The notes beneath the pieces are model-generated. The model did no database searches. It saw only the letters and a program-made list of their open reading frames with translations, and had not been told where the DNA came from. Positions 4,521 to 29,160 of a stretch of DNA of 64,000 nt are shown in pieces; position 1 is the stretch's first letter; each line of letters opens with the position of its first letter. The DNA comes from Escherichia coli. Its GTDB lineage: Bacteria > Pseudomonadota > Gammaproteobacteria > Enterobacterales > Enterobacteriaceae. The translations under genes were made by a program, and so were the position numbers. Location of the stretch: assembly GCF_044324875.1 (NCBI RefSeq), contig NZ_CP172185.1; one strand, written 5' to 3'.

Positions 4521-4596
4521 TGGTGGCCCCTGCTGGACTTGAACCAGCGACCAAGCGATTATGAGTCGCCTGCTCTAACCACTGAGCTAAGGGGCC
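4521..4596 (-). tRNA. ileX: tRNA with anticodon CAT of the Ile2 (lysidine-modified) type
   Basis: Reverse complement GGCCCCTTAGCTCAGTGGTTAGAGCAGGCGACTCATAATCGCTTGGTCGCTGGTTCAAGTCCAGCAGGGGCCACCA: 76 nt, cloverleaf-compatible, anticodon loop CUCAUAA, encoded CCA end. Confidence 0.9.
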
Positions 4597-16904: not shown

Positions 16905-17060
16905 ATGCGTGGAATTGTCAACGATTGCGTAGGCCGGATAAGGCGTTCACGCCGCATCCGGCAATCAACGCCTGATGCGACGCTCGCGCGTCTTATCAGG
17001 CCTACAACTGTCGTTGACATGTAGCCGGATAAGGCGTTTACGCCGCATCCGGCAAAATAT
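16905..17060. repeat. BIME: cluster of three REP palindromes between uppP and cca
   Basis: GCCGGATAAGGCGTTCACGCCGCATCCGGC (16934-16963), GCCTGATGCGACGCTCGCGCGTCTTATCAGGCCTAC (16971-17006) and a second GCCGGATAAGGCGTTTACGCCGCATCCGGC (17025-17054). Confidence 0.75.
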
Positions 17061-23443: not shown

Positions 23444-24877
23444 ATGAAAGTAACGCTGCCAGAGTTTGAACGTGCAGGAGTGATGGTGGTTGGTGATGTG
23501 ATGCTGGATCGTTACTGGTACGGCCCCACCAGTCGTATCTCGCCGGAAGCGCCGGTGCCCGTGGTTAAAGTGAATACCATCGAAGAACGTCCGGGCGGCG
23601 CGGCTAACGTGGCGATGAATATCGCTTCTCTCGGTGCTAATGCACGCCTGGTCGGGTTGACGGGCATTGACGATGCAGCGCGCGCGCTGAGTAAATCTCT
23701 GGCCGACGTCAACGTCAAATGCGACTTCGTTTCTGTACCGACGCATCCGACCATCACCAAATTACGGGTACTTTCCCGCAACCAACAGCTGATCCGTCTG
23801 GATTTTGAAGAAGGTTTCGAAGGGGTTGATCCGCAGCCGCTGCACGAGCGGATTAATCAGGCGCTGAGTTCGATTGGCGCGCTGGTGCTCTCTGACTACG
23901 CGAAAGGTGCGCTGGCAAGCGTGCAGCAGATGATCCAACTGGCGCGTAAAGCGGGCGTTCCGGTGCTGATTGATCCAAAAGGCACCGATTTTGAGCGCTA
24001 CCGCGGCGCTACGCTGTTAACGCCGAATCTCTCGGAATTTGAAGCTGTTGTCGGTAAATGTAAGACCGAAGAAGAGATTGTTGAACGCGGCATGAAACTG
24101 ATTGCCGATTACGAACTCTCGGCTCTGTTAGTGACCCGTTCCGAACAGGGTATGTCGCTGCTGCAACCGGGCAAAACGCCGCTGCATATGCCAACTCAGG
24201 CGCAGGAAGTGTATGACGTTACCGGTGCGGGCGACACGGTGATTGGTGTCCTGGCGGCAACGCTGGCGGCGGGTAATTCGCTGGAAGAAGCCTGCTTCTT
24301 TGCTAATGCGGCGGCAGGCGTAGTGGTCGGCAAACTGGGGACATCCACGGTTTCGCCGATCGAGCTGGAAAACGCAGTACGTGGACGTGCAGATACCGGC
24401 TTTGGTGTGATGACCGAAGAGGAACTGAAGCTTGCTGTGGCGGCGGCGCGTAAACGCGGCGAAAAGGTGGTAATGACCAATGGCGTCTTTGACATCCTGC
24501 ACGCCGGGCACGTCTCTTATCTGGCAAATGCCCGTAAACTGGGTGACCGTTTGATTGTCGCCGTCAACAGCGATGCTTCCACCAAACGGCTGAAAGGGGA
24601 TTCCCGCCCCGTTAACCCTCTCGAGCAGCGTATGATTGTGCTGGGTGCACTGGAAGCGGTCGACTGGGTGGTGTCGTTTGAAGAAGACACGCCGCAGCGC
24701 CTGATCGCCGGGATCTTGCCAGACCTGCTGGTGAAAGGCGGCGACTATAAACCAGAAGAGATTGCCGGGAGTAAAGAAGTCTGGGCCAACGGTGGCGAAG
24801 TGTTGGTGCTCAACTTTGAAGACGGTTGCTCGACGACCAACATCATCAAGAAGATCCAACAGGATAAAAAAGGCTAA
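23444..24877 (+). CDS. hldE: Bifunctional D-glycero-beta-D-manno-heptose-7-phosphate kinase / heptose-1-phosphate adenylyltransferase
   Basis: 477-aa ORF with N-terminal ribokinase-like and C-terminal cytidylyltransferase-like domains; SD AGGAGA. Confidence 0.95.
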
Positions 24878-24921
24878 CCGGAAAGCGGTTCACAGATCTC
24901 GCTTCGAACCTGGCAGGCCTA

Positions 24922-24949
24922 TTGACGCTGTTTTTTTTCAACCTAAAGT
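24922..24949 (+). promoter_or_regulatory. Sigma-70-type promoter of the repeat-1 antisense RNA: TTGACG-N16-TAAAGT
   Basis: -35 TTGACG (24922-24927), 16-bp spacer, -10 TAAAGT (24944-24949); duplicated in repeat 2. Confidence 0.5.
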
Positions 24950-24956
24950 AAAGGAA

Positions 24957-25104
24957 CAAGGGTGAGGGAGGATTTCTCCCCCCTCTGATTGGCTGTTAAT
25001 AAGCTGCGAAACTTACGAGTAACAACACAATCAGTATGATGACCAGCTTCATCATAACCCTTTCCTTATACAAGGCCCCTTCTTCGGGAGGGGCTTTCCC
25101 GTTT
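24957..25104 (+). ncRNA. sibE: Sib-family antisense sRNA (antitoxin), repeat 1; ends are approximate
   Basis: Inferred transcript from the promoter to an intrinsic terminator (8-bp stem GCCCCUUC / GGAGGGGC with UUCG tetraloop at 25075-25094, then a U-rich tract); fully complementary to the 19-codon ORF on the opposite strand. The D versus E label rests on recalled K-12 gene order. Confidence 0.55.
24996..25055 (-). CDS. ibsE: Ibs-family type I toxin, 19-aa hydrophobic peptide MMKLVIILIVLLLVSFAAY
   Basis: Minus-strand ATG ATG AAG CTG GTC ATC ATA CTG ATT GTG TTG TTA CTC GTA AGT TTC GCA GCT TAT TAA, preceded by SD AAGGAAAGGG. Below the 60-aa cutoff of the ORF track. Confidence 0.7.
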   Translation of the reverse strand: MMKLVIILIVLLLVSFAAY

Positions 25105-25242
25105 CAGCCCCTTGCTGACTCCCCGATTGTTGATGAGCGCCAGACCCCGCGCAATGCTTTCCCTGATGCAGTTTTGCCTTCCCCGAGCCGTCACGCAAAA
25201 TGCTGCAACAGCCTGATCATTTGCACCTTTTAGCGGAACGCA

Positions 25243-25277
25243 GATATAAAAAATCCCCGGCTTTTTGGGCCAGGGAT
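25243..25277 (-). terminator. Minus-strand intrinsic terminator at the end of repeat unit 1
   Basis: On the minus strand CCCUGGC-CCAAAAA-GCCGGGG followed by a U-tract; duplicate of the 25621-25654 element. Confidence 0.55.
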
Positions 25278-25296
25278 GTGGGATAGAGAAACCTTC

Positions 25297-25325
25297 TTGA
25301 CGCTGATTTTTTTTCAACCTAAAGT
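25297..25325 (+). promoter_or_regulatory. Sigma-70-type promoter of the repeat-2 antisense RNA: TTGACG-N17-TAAAGT
   Basis: Same hexamers as repeat 1 with one extra base in the spacer. Confidence 0.5.
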
Positions 25326-25332
25326 AAAGGAA

Positions 25333-25481
25333 CAAGGGTAAGGGAGGATTTCTCCCCCCTCTGAATTGGTTGTTAATAAGCCTGGAAACTTACTAGTAAC
25401 AACACAATCAGTATGATGACGAGCTTCATCATAACCCTTTCCTTCTATAAGGCCCCTTCTTCGGGAGGGGCTTTCCCGTTT
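25333..25481 (+). ncRNA. sibD: Sib-family antisense sRNA (antitoxin), repeat 2; ends are approximate
   Basis: Promoter-to-terminator inference as for repeat 1 (hairpin at 25452-25471 with UUCG loop); complementary to the second 19-codon ORF. Confidence 0.55.
25373..25432 (-). CDS. ibsD: Ibs-family type I toxin, 19-aa hydrophobic peptide MMKLVIILIVLLLVSFQAY
   Basis: Minus-strand ATG ATG AAG CTC GTC ATC ATA CTG ATT GTG TTG TTA CTA GTA AGT TTC CAG GCT TAT TAA with the same SD as repeat 1. Confidence 0.7.
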   Translation of the reverse strand: MMKLVIILIVLLLVSFQAY

Positions 25482-25620
25482 CAGCCCCCTGCTGACTCCC
25501 CGATTGTTGATGAGCGCCAGACCCCGCGCAACGCTTTCCCAGAGGCAGTTTTCCCTTCCCCGAGCGGTCACGCAAAATGCTGCAACAGCCTGATCATTTG
25601 CACCTTTTAGCGGAACGCAG

Positions 25621-25654
25621 ATATAAAAAATCCCCGGCTTTTTGGGCCAGGGAT
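25621..25654 (-). terminator. Intrinsic terminator immediately downstream of yqiK
   Basis: Minus-strand hairpin CCCUGGC / GCCGGGG followed by UUUUUUAU, 18 bp after the yqiK stop. Confidence 0.6.
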
Positions 25655-25671
25655 TATTCATAGAAGAGGGT

Positions 25672-27333
25672 TTACTCTGTTTTTTCTTCGACGGGAGTTG
25701 TTGAGGTTAAGGGTGAAGTCAATGCCGCCAGCGAGCCGCCAGAAACACCGATTTCATTGAGCAAGGAGTCAATCAGTGGTGCCTGTGTGCGGTAAGAAAG
25801 GGCGGCAGACAATGCCTGTTCTGCCAGGTTTCCGCCACTAACGCTGCCTGATGCCGCATTCCCCGCAGCGCCACCTCGGTTTAATCCATCGACCTGAATA
25901 ATCTTGATGCCGTCAATGGACTTCATCGGCTCAACGGATTTCTCTATTACCGCAGGTAATGATTGTAATAGCGCCAGTTTGAATTTAAGGCTGGTTTGCT
26001 CGTCAGAAAGTACGTTGATAGCGTCGTTCAGCGCACGTTGCGCTTCTGCTTCCGCCAGACCCTTTTTACGCGTAGCTTCGGCTAACTCAACGATTGCCGC
26101 CGCCTGCATCTCTGCGGCTTCTTTTTCAGCTTTCGCCCGGACGGTCAGTTCGACTGCTTTGGTTTCCGCGTCCTGCGCGGCAGCGATTAGGGCAACTTGT
26201 TTAGCACGATCGGCTTCTGCGGTCTGGCGAGTGGTTTCAACGTTTTGCTGGGCGCTTACCGCTTCTGCAAGTGCAAGGTTGGCACGCGCTTCCGCTTGTG
26301 ACTGCTGTTCCGATTTGGCGGCAATAGCGATCGATTTCGTCTGGTTGGCGATTTCGGTGACCTGCTGCTGTTCGATCTCTTTAATGCGAACTTCACGTTC
26401 AGCTTCAACTTTTCTGGAACGGACGGCCTGTTCGCGGTCGATTTCCGTTTCCTGAATCTGTCGTTCAGCCAGAATTCGCGTCTGCTCTGCTTCCCGACGA
26501 CGCTCGGCCTCAAAAGCCGCAATTTTCGCATTCTGCTCAGCGGTACGGGTTTTAACCTGCTGCTCCTGCTCAAGCGTCATAAACGCTTCTTGTTGTTCAA
26601 TCTCCAGCTTGCGCGAAAGCGCATCACGGTTTTTCTCACGCACCGCAACTTCTACATCCTGTTCAACTTCGTTACGTTCGCGACGACGGCGCTCCGTCTC
26701 CTGCGTCAGCTTGGTTAAACCTTCGGCGTCAAAGGCGTTGTTAGGATTGAAATGTTCTTTCGACGTCTGGTTAAAGTTGGTAAGTGAAACGCTTTCCAGT
26801 TCCAGGCCGTTTTTCGACAGATCTTCAGCTACGGTATTTTGTACTCCCTGCACGAAGTTCTCGCGGGTATCCTGTAACTCATGCATGGTCATTTGTGCAG
26901 CTGTTGCACGGAGGGCATCGACAAATTTATCTTCAACCAACATACGTAAGTCTTCAGGCGACAGGGTGCGTTGTCCCAGCGTCTGGGCGGCGGTGGCAAT
27001 CCCTTCAACTGAAGGTTTTACCCGCACAAAGAAAGCGACCACGACATCGACGCGCATACGATCTTTCGTAATCAGGCTATCAATGGTTGAGCGGCTGACT
27101 TCCAGCTTCAGGGTATTCATATTGATGGGGATTATTTCATGAAAGATCGGCATCACGATTGCGCCACCGCTCATTACCACTTTTTGCCCACCTAAACCAG
27201 TACGAACAAAAGCTTGCTCTGCCGAAGCGCGACGATAGAGCCTGGCGAAAATAATTCCAATAATAAACAGAATGCATACGGCAATAATTGCGGTAAACAT
27301 CCAGGAGGGCACAGAATTAACAATATCATCCAT
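25672..27333 (-). CDS. yqiK: Flotillin-like SPFH (band 7) domain membrane protein
   Basis: 553-aa ORF: N-terminal TM helix, SPFH domain, long Glu/Ala/Arg/Gln-rich coiled coil. Confidence 0.9.
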   Translation of the reverse strand: MDDIVNSVPSWMFTAIIAVCILFIIGIIFARLYRRASAEQAFVRTGLGGQKVVMSGGAIVMPIFHEIIPINMNTLKLEVSRSTIDSLITKDRMRVDVVVAFFVRVKPSVEGIATAAQTLGQRTLSPEDLRMLVEDKFVDALRATAAQMTMHELQDTRENFVQGVQNTVAEDLSKNGLELESVSLTNFNQTSKEHFNPNNAFDAEGLTKLTQETERRRRERNEVEQDVEVAVREKNRDALSRKLEIEQQEAFMTLEQEQQVKTRTAEQNAKIAAFEAERRREAEQTRILAERQIQETEIDREQAVRSRKVEAEREVRIKEIEQQQVTEIANQTKSIAIAAKSEQQSQAEARANLALAEAVSAQQNVETTRQTAEADRAKQVALIAAAQDAETKAVELTVRAKAEKEAAEMQAAAIVELAEATRKKGLAEAEAQRALNDAINVLSDEQTSLKFKLALLQSLPAVIEKSVEPMKSIDGIKIIQVDGLNRGGAAGNAASGSVSGGNLAEQALSAALSYRTQAPLIDSLLNEIGVSGGSLAALTSPLTSTTPVEEKTE

Positions 27334-28913: not shown

Positions 28914-29160
28914 GCTTATTCTCAGGGCGGGGCGAAATTCCCCACCGGCGGTAAATCAACTCAGTTGAAAGCCCGCGAGCGCTTTGGGTGCGAACTCAAA
29001 GGACAGCAGATCCGGTGTAATTCCGGGGCCGACGGTTAGAGTCCGGATGGGAGAGAGTAACGATTCTGTCGGGCATGGACCCGCTCACGTTATTTTGGCT
29101 ATATGCCGCCACTCCTAAGACTGCCCTGATTCTGGTAACCATAATTTTAGTGAGGTTTTT
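28914..29160 (+). promoter_or_regulatory. sroG: FMN riboswitch (RFN element) in the ribB leader
   Basis: Conserved FMN-aptamer blocks present: CAGGGCGGGGCGAAAUUCCCCACCGGCGGUA, GCCCGCGAGCG, GCCGACGGUUAGAGUCCGGAUGGGAGA, followed by the expression platform and SD GAGG. Confidence 0.85.

What the first reader, a model, noticed from the sequence alone, without database searches (positions are those of the whole stretch)
25075..25094. One 8-bp UUCG-tetraloop hairpin may serve as terminator on one strand and 5'-UTR structure on the other
GCCCCTTC-TTCG-GGAGGGGC forms the terminator stem of the plus-strand RNA. Its complement on the minus strand lies 20-40 nt upstream of the toxin SD, where a stable stem could limit ribosome access to the ibs-like message. 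The same element recurs at 25452-25471 in repeat 2.
Basis: inference. Interest (0 to 1): 0.3.

Follow-up and report, generated by a model that had tools for sequence, protein, structure and literature searches.

The report
Known Sib antitoxin RNA terminator hairpin
The hairpin is the already-described transcription terminator of two E. coli Sib antitoxin small RNAs; its mirror image does sit in the leader of the Ibs toxin mRNA, but there it is weaker and nothing suggests it blocks ribosomes, so the finding is ordinary.

Summary
The window is the E. coli hldE–yqiK spacer, which carries the tandem sibE/ibsE and sibD/ibsD type I toxin–antitoxin copies. GCCCCTTC-TTCG-GGAGGGGC is present exactly at 25075-25094 and 25452-25471.

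On the + strand it folds as an 8-bp C(UUCG)G hairpin (-14.5 kcal/mol). It ends 5 nt before the annotated 3' ends of SibE and SibD, and it matches the "P7 terminator" of Han et al. 2010. In 37 homologues from several genera it is 99% paired, with compensatory changes.

The ibs start site mapped by Han et al. lies 24 nt beyond the hairpin, so the complement is in the toxin 5' UTR.

The proposed ribosome-limiting role is not supported, for four reasons:
- The mirror image is only 6 bp (-10.1 kcal/mol), because a U·G wobble becomes a C·A mismatch in 36 of 37 homologues.
- It stops 7 nt before the Shine-Dalgarno (SD) sequence.
- It is a minority fold of the full mRNA (probability 0.03-0.41).
- In ibsC the SD guanines are RNase T1-accessible.

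One caveat: published Term-seq puts the dominant Sib 3' ends upstream of the hairpin.

Verdict: real, already known, low interest.

The parts
25075..25094 (+). Terminator stem-loop of the SibE-like antitoxin sRNA (repeat 1): 8 bp plus a C(UUCG)G tetraloop. Its mirror image on the minus strand is +26..+45 of the ibs 5' UTR.
   Evidence: conservation and covariation.
25452..25471 (+). Identical terminator stem-loop of the SibD-like antitoxin sRNA (repeat 2).
24956..25099 (+). SibE-like sRNA (144 nt), ends placed by homology to K-12 sibE. The 3' end is hairpin + UUUCC.
25332..25476 (+). SibD-like sRNA (about 145 nt), ends placed by homology to K-12 sibD.
24922..24949 (+). Sib promoter of repeat 1 (TTGACG-16-TAAAGT).
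25297..25325 (+). Sib promoter of repeat 2 (TTGACG-17-TAAAGT).
24996..25055 (-). ibs toxin ORF of repeat 1 (MMKLVIILIVLLLVSFAAY).
25373..25432 (-). ibs toxin ORF of repeat 2 (MMKLVIILIVLLLVSFQAY).
25058..25067 (-). ibs Shine-Dalgarno region AAGGAAAGGG of repeat 1. It begins 7 nt 3' of the mirrored hairpin and is the target of Sib TRD2. The repeat 2 equivalent is 25435-25444.
   Evidence: Read directly; the TRD2/J2-3 assignment follows Han 2010.
25104..25118 (-). Conserved 5-bp hairpin (UCAGC-N5-GCUGA) just past the Sib 3' end. It is the 5'-terminal stem-loop of the ibs mRNA, whose +1 is 25119 by homology. The repeat 2 equivalent is 25481-25495, with +1 at 25496.
   Evidence: T7 primer sequence for ibsD; 93% paired, CG<->UA covariation.
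25253..25277 (-). Minus-strand intrinsic terminator-like hairpin. It is a duplicate of the yqiK terminator at 25629-25655 and lies downstream of ibs repeat 2.

Best explanation
The hairpin is the Rho-independent terminator and 3' stem-loop of the SibE- and SibD-type antitoxin sRNAs. Transcription from the Sib promoter (+1 at 24956 and 25332) ends at UUUCC just after the C(UUCG)G hairpin. By homology with SibA and SibB, this stem plus its 3' tail is probably also the handle bound by the FinO domain of ProQ (inferred).

The ibs toxin gene is nested antisense inside sib, and its weak promoter fires 24 nt beyond the hairpin. The ibs mRNA therefore necessarily carries the complementary 20 nt at +26..+45 of its 64-nt leader.

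That mirror image is a geometric by-product, not a dedicated translational operator:
- It is weaker, because a conserved U·G or G·U wobble becomes a C·A or A·C mismatch and the UUCG loop becomes CGAA.
- It does not contain the SD.
- In these D/E-type copies it competes with an alternative 7-bp helix.

Repression of ibs comes from Sib pairing at the SD region (TRD2) and within the ORF (TRD1), as published.
For: Shown here:
- Rfam SIB_RNA hits at 145 and 142 bits, and the same hldE-yqiK locus as K-12 sibD/sibE with annotated Ibs CDSs.
- All five K-12 Sib RNAs are annotated to end 4-6 nt after an equivalent hairpin with a UUCG, CUCG or UCCG loop.
- In 37 distinct homologues the stem is 99% paired. 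Three pairs show both-side compensatory changes, and 0 of 500 shuffles reach the observed covariation score.
- Strand asymmetry: the Sib strand has 255 Watson-Crick pairs, 38 wobbles and 3 mismatches. The ibs strand has 255 Watson-Crick pairs, 3 wobbles and 38 mismatches. 31 of 37 loops are YNCG-type on the Sib strand.
- The Sib-strand hairpin is the more stable of the two in 35 of the 38 hairpin-bearing homologues, usually by 3-7 kcal/mol.

From the literature:
- Han 2010 names the SibC P7 terminator stem. Swapping the arms of P6 and P7, which kept their structure, did not abolish repression by a truncated SibC derivative.
- The same paper maps the ibsC and ibsD +1 by primer extension, reports an 18-nt 5' overhang of ibsC over SibC, and finds the SD guanines RNase T1-accessible.
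- The ProQ N-terminal domain binds terminators and binds SibA at 2-5 nM.
Against: - The U-tract is poor (UUUCCCGUUU), and the simple terminator scan does not call it.
- Term-seq (Adams 2021, supplementary file 1) lists the dominant 3' ends of all five Sib RNAs 17-19 nt upstream of the hairpin, in the anti-SD region. It does not list the annotated full-length ends. Either the roughly 110-nt species is the main stable form in vivo, or the paired 3' end ligates poorly.
- Neither termination at this hairpin nor ProQ binding to SibD/E was tested directly here.
- An ibsC 5'-UTR fragment ending 6 nt after the mirrored hairpin exists in vivo. The mirrored stem may therefore have some role in RNA decay or processing.
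Confidence: 0.8

Rival explanations
1. One reading: the mirrored hairpin in the ibs 5' UTR is a functional operator that limits 30S access to the toxin SD, so one palindrome serves two regulatory purposes.
For: The hairpin is inside the mapped ibs leader. It lies at -20..-39 from the AUG, at the upstream edge of the region a 30S subunit contacts (general knowledge). Many type I toxin mRNAs use leader structure to stay inert, for example zorO (PMC5397157, listed).
Against: - The SD starts 7 nt beyond the stem and is not part of it.
- The mirrored stem has only 6 bp at -10.1 kcal/mol.
- A wobble that becomes a mismatch on this strand is kept in 36 of 37 homologues.
- Its probability in the full mRNA ensemble is 0.41 (repeat 1) and 0.03 (repeat 2), and about 0.01 in the 5' 100 nt.
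- Strengthening it in silico raises mean SD-region accessibility (0.35 to 0.51 and 0.24 to 0.47).
- The ibsC SD guanines are RNase T1-accessible although P2 is in the model.
Confidence: 0.08
2. The mirrored hairpin has a different, non-inhibitory role in the ibs mRNA. It could act as an insulator that keeps the C-rich arm away from the SD and holds the SD region single-stranded for Sib TRD2. It could also act as a 3'-exonuclease or processing barrier that yields a stable leader fragment.
For: - Term-seq shows an ibsC leader fragment ending at 3056960(-), 6 nt after the mirrored hairpin. This end exactly abuts the SibC 3' end at 3056959(+).
- In silico, forcing the stem increases SD accessibility, and destroying only its 3' arm decreases it.
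- In ibsC, P2 and P3 flank J2/3, the TRD2 target.
Against: - No equivalent leader fragment is listed for ibsD or ibsE.
- The stem is predicted to be a minority fold in the D/E copies present in this window.
- All the folding evidence is thermodynamic prediction.
Confidence: 0.12
3. The hairpin is a bidirectional intrinsic terminator that also attenuates ibs transcription before the ORF.
For: The ibsC 3' end lies 6 nt after the mirrored stem. A short A-run upstream (AAG) pairs with the UUU on the Sib strand.
Against: On the minus strand the stem is followed by CUUGUAUAAGG or CUUAUAGAAGG, which is not a U-tract. The scan calls no minus-strand terminator there. The stem is weakened on that strand.
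Confidence: 0.03

Closest known systems
SibC P7 terminator and ibsC mRNA P2 (Han et al. 2010, NAR 38:5851, PMC2943612)
   Same: It has the same position: immediately 3' of the anti-SD region (TRD2) in Sib and immediately 5' of the SD (J2/3) in ibs. It has the same 8-bp architecture, the same UUCG loop, and a wobble at pair 7. The ibs +1 lies about 18-24 nt beyond the Sib 3' end.
   Different: The stem sequence differs (GCCCTCGC/GTGAGGGC in SibC against GCCCCTTC/GGAGGGGC here), with compensatory changes at pairs 5-7. In the D/E copies a G-run in the ibs 5'-terminal hairpin loop offers a competing 7-bp helix that SibC-type copies lack.
K-12 sibE (b4611) and sibD (b4447) with ibsE and ibsD
   Same: This is the orthologous locus between hldE and yqiK. 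The hairpin is identical to that of K-12 sibE.
   Different: K-12 sibD carries an extra C in the 5' arm, giving a bulge (-14.3 against -18.2 kcal/mol). Over the 851-bp spacer, 5085 of 5425 E. coli genomes with a match are only 90-95% identical to this window.
ProQ/FinO-bound intrinsic terminators (SibA, SibB, cspE-3', FinP; Stein et al. 2020, PMC7367173)
   Same: A GC-rich terminator stem with a short 3' tail on a cis-antisense sRNA. SibA and SibB are demonstrated ProQ ligands.
   Different: ProQ binding to SibD or SibE was not tested here. The tail here is UUUCC, not an oligo-U run.
Leader structures of other type I toxin mRNAs (hok fold-back inhibition, zorO and tisB 5' UTRs)
   Same: This is also a toxin mRNA with a structured leader. 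A long-range pairing between the SD and the mRNA 3' end is predicted for ibs.
   Different: In those systems the inhibitory structure sequesters the SD or a standby site, and this has been shown experimentally. Here the hairpin in question does not touch the SD, and no inhibitory effect is known.

Membership tests
Sib antitoxin sRNA / Ibs-Sib type I toxin-antitoxin (Rfam RF00113) | Covariance-model match above the Rfam gathering score | tested here: met
   145.3 and 142.5 bits against a gathering score of 56.
Sib antitoxin sRNA / Ibs-Sib type I toxin-antitoxin (Rfam RF00113) | An 18-19 aa hydrophobic Ibs ORF fully antisense inside the sRNA gene | tested here: met
   MMKLVIILIVLLLVSFAAY and ...SFQAY at 24996-25055 and 25373-25432 (-), annotated as Ibs family toxin in RefSeq.
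Sib antitoxin sRNA / Ibs-Sib type I toxin-antitoxin (Rfam RF00113) | Synteny with a characterised copy | tested here: met
   It lies between hldE and yqiK, as K-12 sibD/sibE do.
Rho-independent (intrinsic) terminator | GC-rich stem-loop | tested here: met
   8 bp including 6 G-C pairs, -14.5 kcal/mol.
Rho-independent (intrinsic) terminator | Contiguous U-tract directly after the stem | tested here: inconclusive
   The tail is UUUCCCGUUU, only three consecutive U. The consensus scan does not call it.
Rho-independent (intrinsic) terminator | RNA 3' end mapped just after the stem | tested here: inconclusive
   K-12 annotation places the SibA-E ends 4-6 nt after the stem, and Han 2010 says the ends are well defined. 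However, Term-seq lists only upstream ends at 3194756 and 3195129.
C(UUCG)G extra-stable tetraloop | UUCG loop closed by a C-G pair | tested here: met
   Met on the + (Sib) strand only. The minus strand reads C(CGAA)G. 31 of 37 homologues have UUCG, CUCG or UCCG on the Sib strand.
SD-sequestering translational operator hairpin in a 5' UTR | SD or start codon lies within, or is directly occluded by, the stem | tested here: not met
   The stem ends at 25075 and the SD spans 25067-25058, with 7 unpaired nt between them.
SD-sequestering translational operator hairpin in a 5' UTR | The stem is a stable, dominant fold of the mRNA | tested here: not met
   Probability 0.41 and 0.03 in the full mRNA and about 0.01 in the 5' 100 nt. 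It is absent from the MFE of the 70-nt leader in D/E copies.
SD-sequestering translational operator hairpin in a 5' UTR | Mutations in the stem change translation | not testable with these tools
   This needs reporter fusions or toeprinting.
Bidirectional intrinsic terminator | U-tract after the stem on both strands | tested here: not met
   The minus-strand tail is CUUGUAUAAGG, and no minus-strand call is made there.
ProQ (FinO-domain) terminator ligand | Direct binding of ProQ to the terminator stem and 3' tail | not testable with these tools
   Shown for SibA and SibB in the literature. Only inferred for SibD and SibE.

The most novel reading that the evidence does not exclude
The near-universal wobble at stem pair 7 (U·G in 32 and G·U in 4 of 37 homologues, never C-G) may be maintained by selection. 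If so, one DNA palindrome would give a strong terminator in the antitoxin but only a weak, facultative stem in the toxin leader, as a deliberate strand-asymmetric design. This asymmetry, or the leader fragment ending just after the mirrored stem in ibsC, could tune toxin mRNA decay or Sib access to the SD.
Probability: 0.15. Interest if true: 0.3.

Novelty: already known. Interest (0 to 1): 0.1.

Why it matters
It matters little. The Sib terminator and the overlap of the ibs leader with it were described in 2008-2010. The useful outputs here are corrections and small refinements:
- The mirrored stem is not equivalent on the two strands.
- It does not cover the SD.
- Comparative data point to selection on the antitoxin strand.
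- Published Term-seq data suggest that the abundant Sib species may lack this hairpin altogether.

If the strand asymmetry were shown to be selected, it would be a neat but incremental example of how fully overlapping antisense genes decouple the structures of their two transcripts.

Tried and rejected
- Fozo et al. 2008, the primary description of Sib/Ibs, could not be read; it is not held under either its PubMed id or its PMC id. Statements about mapped Sib ends therefore rest on the K-12 annotation and on Han 2010.
- The simple terminator scan does not call the hairpin. I did not take this as evidence against termination, because the scan requires at least 5 T in 8 bases.
- Chance was considered. 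Hairpins of this class occur about 4 times per strand in 64 kb, so the hairpin alone is not significant. Chance is rejected because of its position, its duplication and its covariation.
- A bidirectional terminator was rejected because there is no minus-strand U-tract.
- RNase III cleavage of a Sib-ibs duplex was considered for the abutting SibC and ibsC 3' ends (3056959 and 3056960). The geometry is blunt rather than the 2-nt 3' overhang expected of RNase III, so this is left open.
- Selection to retain the wobble cannot be demonstrated. Few independent substitutions occur in the stem, and paralogue gene conversion is plausible.
- The genome contigs pattern scan returned many chance matches outside Enterobacteriaceae. 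These were filtered out by the Ibs peptide and flank pattern.

Full report
**Locus.** The window around the finding is the E. coli hldE–yqiK intergenic region. hldE ends at 24876 on the + strand and yqiK lies on the minus strand from about 25672. Between them sit two tandem 377-bp repeats, each with a Sib antitoxin sRNA gene on the + strand and a 19-codon ibs toxin ORF on the minus strand.
- Rfam's SIB_RNA model hits both repeats at 145.3 and 142.5 bits, against a gathering score of 56.
- An identical 851-bp stretch in strain PK8275 is annotated with two "type I toxin-antitoxin system Ibs family toxin" CDSs. These map to window 24996-25055 and 25373-25432 on the minus strand.
- In K-12 the orthologous genes are sibE/ibsE and sibD/ibsD, and the alignment confirms the correspondence.

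**Observation.** GCCCCTTCTTCGGGAGGGGC occurs exactly at 25075-25094 and 25452-25471.
- As + strand RNA it forms 8 bp with a UUCG loop closed by C-G. The energy is -14.5 kcal/mol and none of 200 shuffles folds as well. With the flanking AAG and UUU it extends to 11 bp (-18.2 kcal/mol).
- A hairpin of this class is not rare by itself: there are 7 on the + strand of the window against about 4.3 expected.
- Its reality rests on context and conservation, described below.
- Two details in the finding need correcting. The complement lies 20-39 nt upstream of the ibs AUG and only 7 nt upstream of the SD (AAGGAAAGGG, 25067-25058). The minus-strand version is not the same hairpin: pair 7 (U·G) becomes a C·A mismatch and the loop becomes CGAA. 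That leaves 6 bp at -10.1 kcal/mol, which 12 of 200 shuffles match.

**Role on the + strand.**
- K-12 sibE (144 nt) and sibD (145 nt) are annotated to end 44-45 nt upstream of the ibs start codon. That is hairpin + UUUCC, or 25099 and 25476 in the window.
- All five K-12 Sib RNAs end 4-6 nt after an equivalent stem with a UUCG, CUCG or UCCG loop.
- Han et al. 2010 (PMC2943612) call the SibC equivalent the "P7 transcription terminator stem" and had to substitute the rrnB terminator when deleting it. Exchanging the arms of P6 and P7, which kept their structure, did not abolish repression by a truncated SibC derivative.
- Sib RNAs are ProQ ligands, and the ProQ FinO domain recognises terminator stems plus 3' tails. 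SibA binds at 2-5 nM. The hairpin is therefore plausibly also the ProQ handle; this is inferred for SibD and SibE.

**Is it in the toxin mRNA?** Yes.
- Han et al. mapped the ibsC and ibsD +1 by primer extension on CAT fusions. Their T7 primer for ibsD RNA begins GTCAGCAGGGGGCTG.
- That sequence is the minus strand starting at 25496 in repeat 2 and, by homology, at 25119 in repeat 1. Both lie 24 nt upstream of the hairpin, giving a 64-nt leader with the mirrored hairpin at +26..+45.
- Rebuilding the ibsC numbering from the E. coli SibC-type copy places the SD guanines at G50, G51 and G53, exactly as the paper reports for "J2/3". The stem that precedes it in their model (P2) is therefore the complement of the SibC terminator.
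The two-transcript geometry is, however, already implicit in the published model.

**Does it limit ribosome access?** The evidence points the other way.
1. The SD is outside the stem.
2. Across 37 distinct homologues from E. coli, E. albertii, Citrobacter, Pseudocitrobacter, Kluyvera, Pluralibacter and others, the stem is 99% paired on the Sib strand. Three pairs show compensatory changes, and the covariation score exceeds all 500 shuffles.
3. The conservation is asymmetric between strands.
   - Pair 7 is a wobble on the Sib strand in 36 of 37 sequences (U·G in 32, G·U in 4).
   - The Sib strand totals 255 Watson-Crick pairs, 38 wobbles and 3 mismatches. The ibs strand totals 255 Watson-Crick pairs, 3 wobbles and 38 mismatches.
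   - 31 of 37 loops are YNCG-type only on the Sib strand.
   - The Sib-strand stem is the more stable of the two in 35 of the 38 hairpin-bearing homologues, usually by 3-7 kcal/mol.
4. In the predicted ensemble of the full 162- and 163-nt ibs mRNAs, the mirrored stem has probability 0.41 (repeat 1) and 0.03 (repeat 2).
   - Its C-rich arm pairs instead with a G-run at +8..+14 (AGGGGCU with AGCCCCU, 7 Watson-Crick pairs).
   - The AGGG of the SD and the AUG are instead sequestered by pairing with the mRNA 3' end (ACCCUU) and by the AUGAUGA/UCAUCAU stem.
   - Making the stem perfect raises mean SD-region accessibility (0.35 to 0.51 and 0.24 to 0.47).
   - Destroying only the 3' arm lowers it.
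5. In vitro, the ibsC SD guanines are cut by RNase T1 until SibC is added.

All folding results are predictions. None of this excludes a modest effect.

**A caveat from Term-seq.** Supplementary file 1 of Adams et al. 2021 (PMC7815308) lists very strong 3' ends for sibD at 3194756 and for sibE at 3195129.
- Checking coordinates against the 61-nt sequence column (-50..+10), these ends fall at ...CCCUUUCC and ...CCCUUUCCUU. That is inside the anti-SD, 19 and 17 nt upstream of the hairpin. They correspond to window 25442 and 25067.
- sibA, sibB and sibC behave the same way, and the annotated full-length ends are not listed.
- Either the roughly 110-nt hairpin-less species is the most abundant form in vivo, or the largely paired UUUCC end ligates poorly. 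I could not resolve this.
- In one condition an ibsC leader fragment ends at 3056960(-), 6 nt after the mirrored stem. It exactly abuts the SibC end at 3056959(+). This confirms in vivo that ibs transcripts traverse the hairpin and hints at coupled processing at the SD/anti-SD duplex. The blunt geometry does not match a simple RNase III cut.

**Other features.**
- Directly after the Sib 3' end there is a second conserved hairpin at 25104-25118 and 25481-25495. It is 93% paired, with CG<->UA covariation. It begins at +2 of the ibs mRNA, so it is a 5'-terminal stem-loop of the toxin message.
- The ibs promoter inferred upstream of it (TTGCGC-17-AACAAT) is weak and is not called by the scan.

**Verdict.** The hairpin is real and is the known Sib terminator. 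Its complement is indeed in the ibs leader, but as a weakened by-product of complete antisense overlap, and there is no support for a ribosome-blocking role. This is already known biology and the interest is low. The only mildly new points are the quantified strand asymmetry and the Term-seq discrepancy.

Noticed in passing
window 24922-25070 and 25297-25447: The Rfam RF00113 (SIB_RNA) model boundaries do not match the RNA. The hit starts at the Sib -35 hexamer, 34 nt upstream of +1, and stops 5 nt before the terminator hairpin. The outer 4 bp of its 'P1' use nucleotides that lie upstream of the mapped +1.
   Followed up: partly
window 25067 and 25442 (+), equivalent to K-12 3195129 and 3194756: Published Term-seq (Adams 2021) puts the dominant 3' end of all five K-12 Sib RNAs inside the anti-SD (...CCCUUUCC(UU)), 17-19 nt upstream of the terminator hairpin. 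Read counts are in the millions, and the annotated full-length ends are not listed.
   Followed up: partly
K-12 3056959(+) and 3056960(-) (sibC/ibsC; locus L124): A SibC 3' end and an ibsC leader 3' end abut exactly in the Term-seq table. The ibsC fragment, about 50 nt, ends 6 nt after the mirrored terminator stem. This suggests coupled processing at the SD/anti-SD duplex, but the geometry is blunt, not RNase III-like.
   Followed up: partly
window 25104-25118 and 25481-25495: A second conserved, covarying 5-8 bp hairpin lies just beyond the Sib 3' end. It starts at +2 of the ibs mRNA, so it is a 5'-terminal stem-loop of the toxin message.
   Followed up: partly
window 25075-25081 and 25107-25113: GCCCCTT occurs twice, 32 nt apart. 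On the minus strand two AAGGGGC segments compete for one GCCCCU arm, and the predicted alternative 7-bp helix outcompetes the mirrored hairpin. Two Citrobacter copies (L013, L115) lack the hairpin, with a junction consistent with deletion between these repeats.
   Followed up: partly
window 25253-25277 and 25629-25655 (-): The canonical yqiK intrinsic terminator is duplicated inside the 377-bp tandem unit. A second copy therefore sits downstream of ibs repeat 2, between the two Sib genes.
   Followed up: no
L002 (K-12 sibD) compared with window 25452-25471: K-12 sibD has an extra C in the 5' arm of the terminator, which forms a bulge (-14.3 against -18.2 kcal/mol). The window's two copies and K-12 sibE are identical.
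   Followed up: no
window 24958-24963 with 25056-25063 (minus-strand mRNA): The ibs SD/AUG region is predicted to pair with the mRNA 3' end (ACCCUU), the mirror of the Sib P1 helix. This is reminiscent of hok fold-back inhibition. The ibsD 3' end in Term-seq (3194855) would remove this segment.
   Followed up: partly
window 24850-25700: Only 123 of 5425 complete E. coli genomes are at least 99% identical over this spacer, and 5085 are 90-95% identical. That is unusually divergent for a chromosomal core region.
   Followed up: no
window 28914-29062 (+), 16932-17002 (+), 4524-4596 (-): Other Rfam hits in the window: an FMN riboswitch, naRNA4 (a REP-derived nucleoid-associated RNA) and a tRNA.
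   Followed up: no
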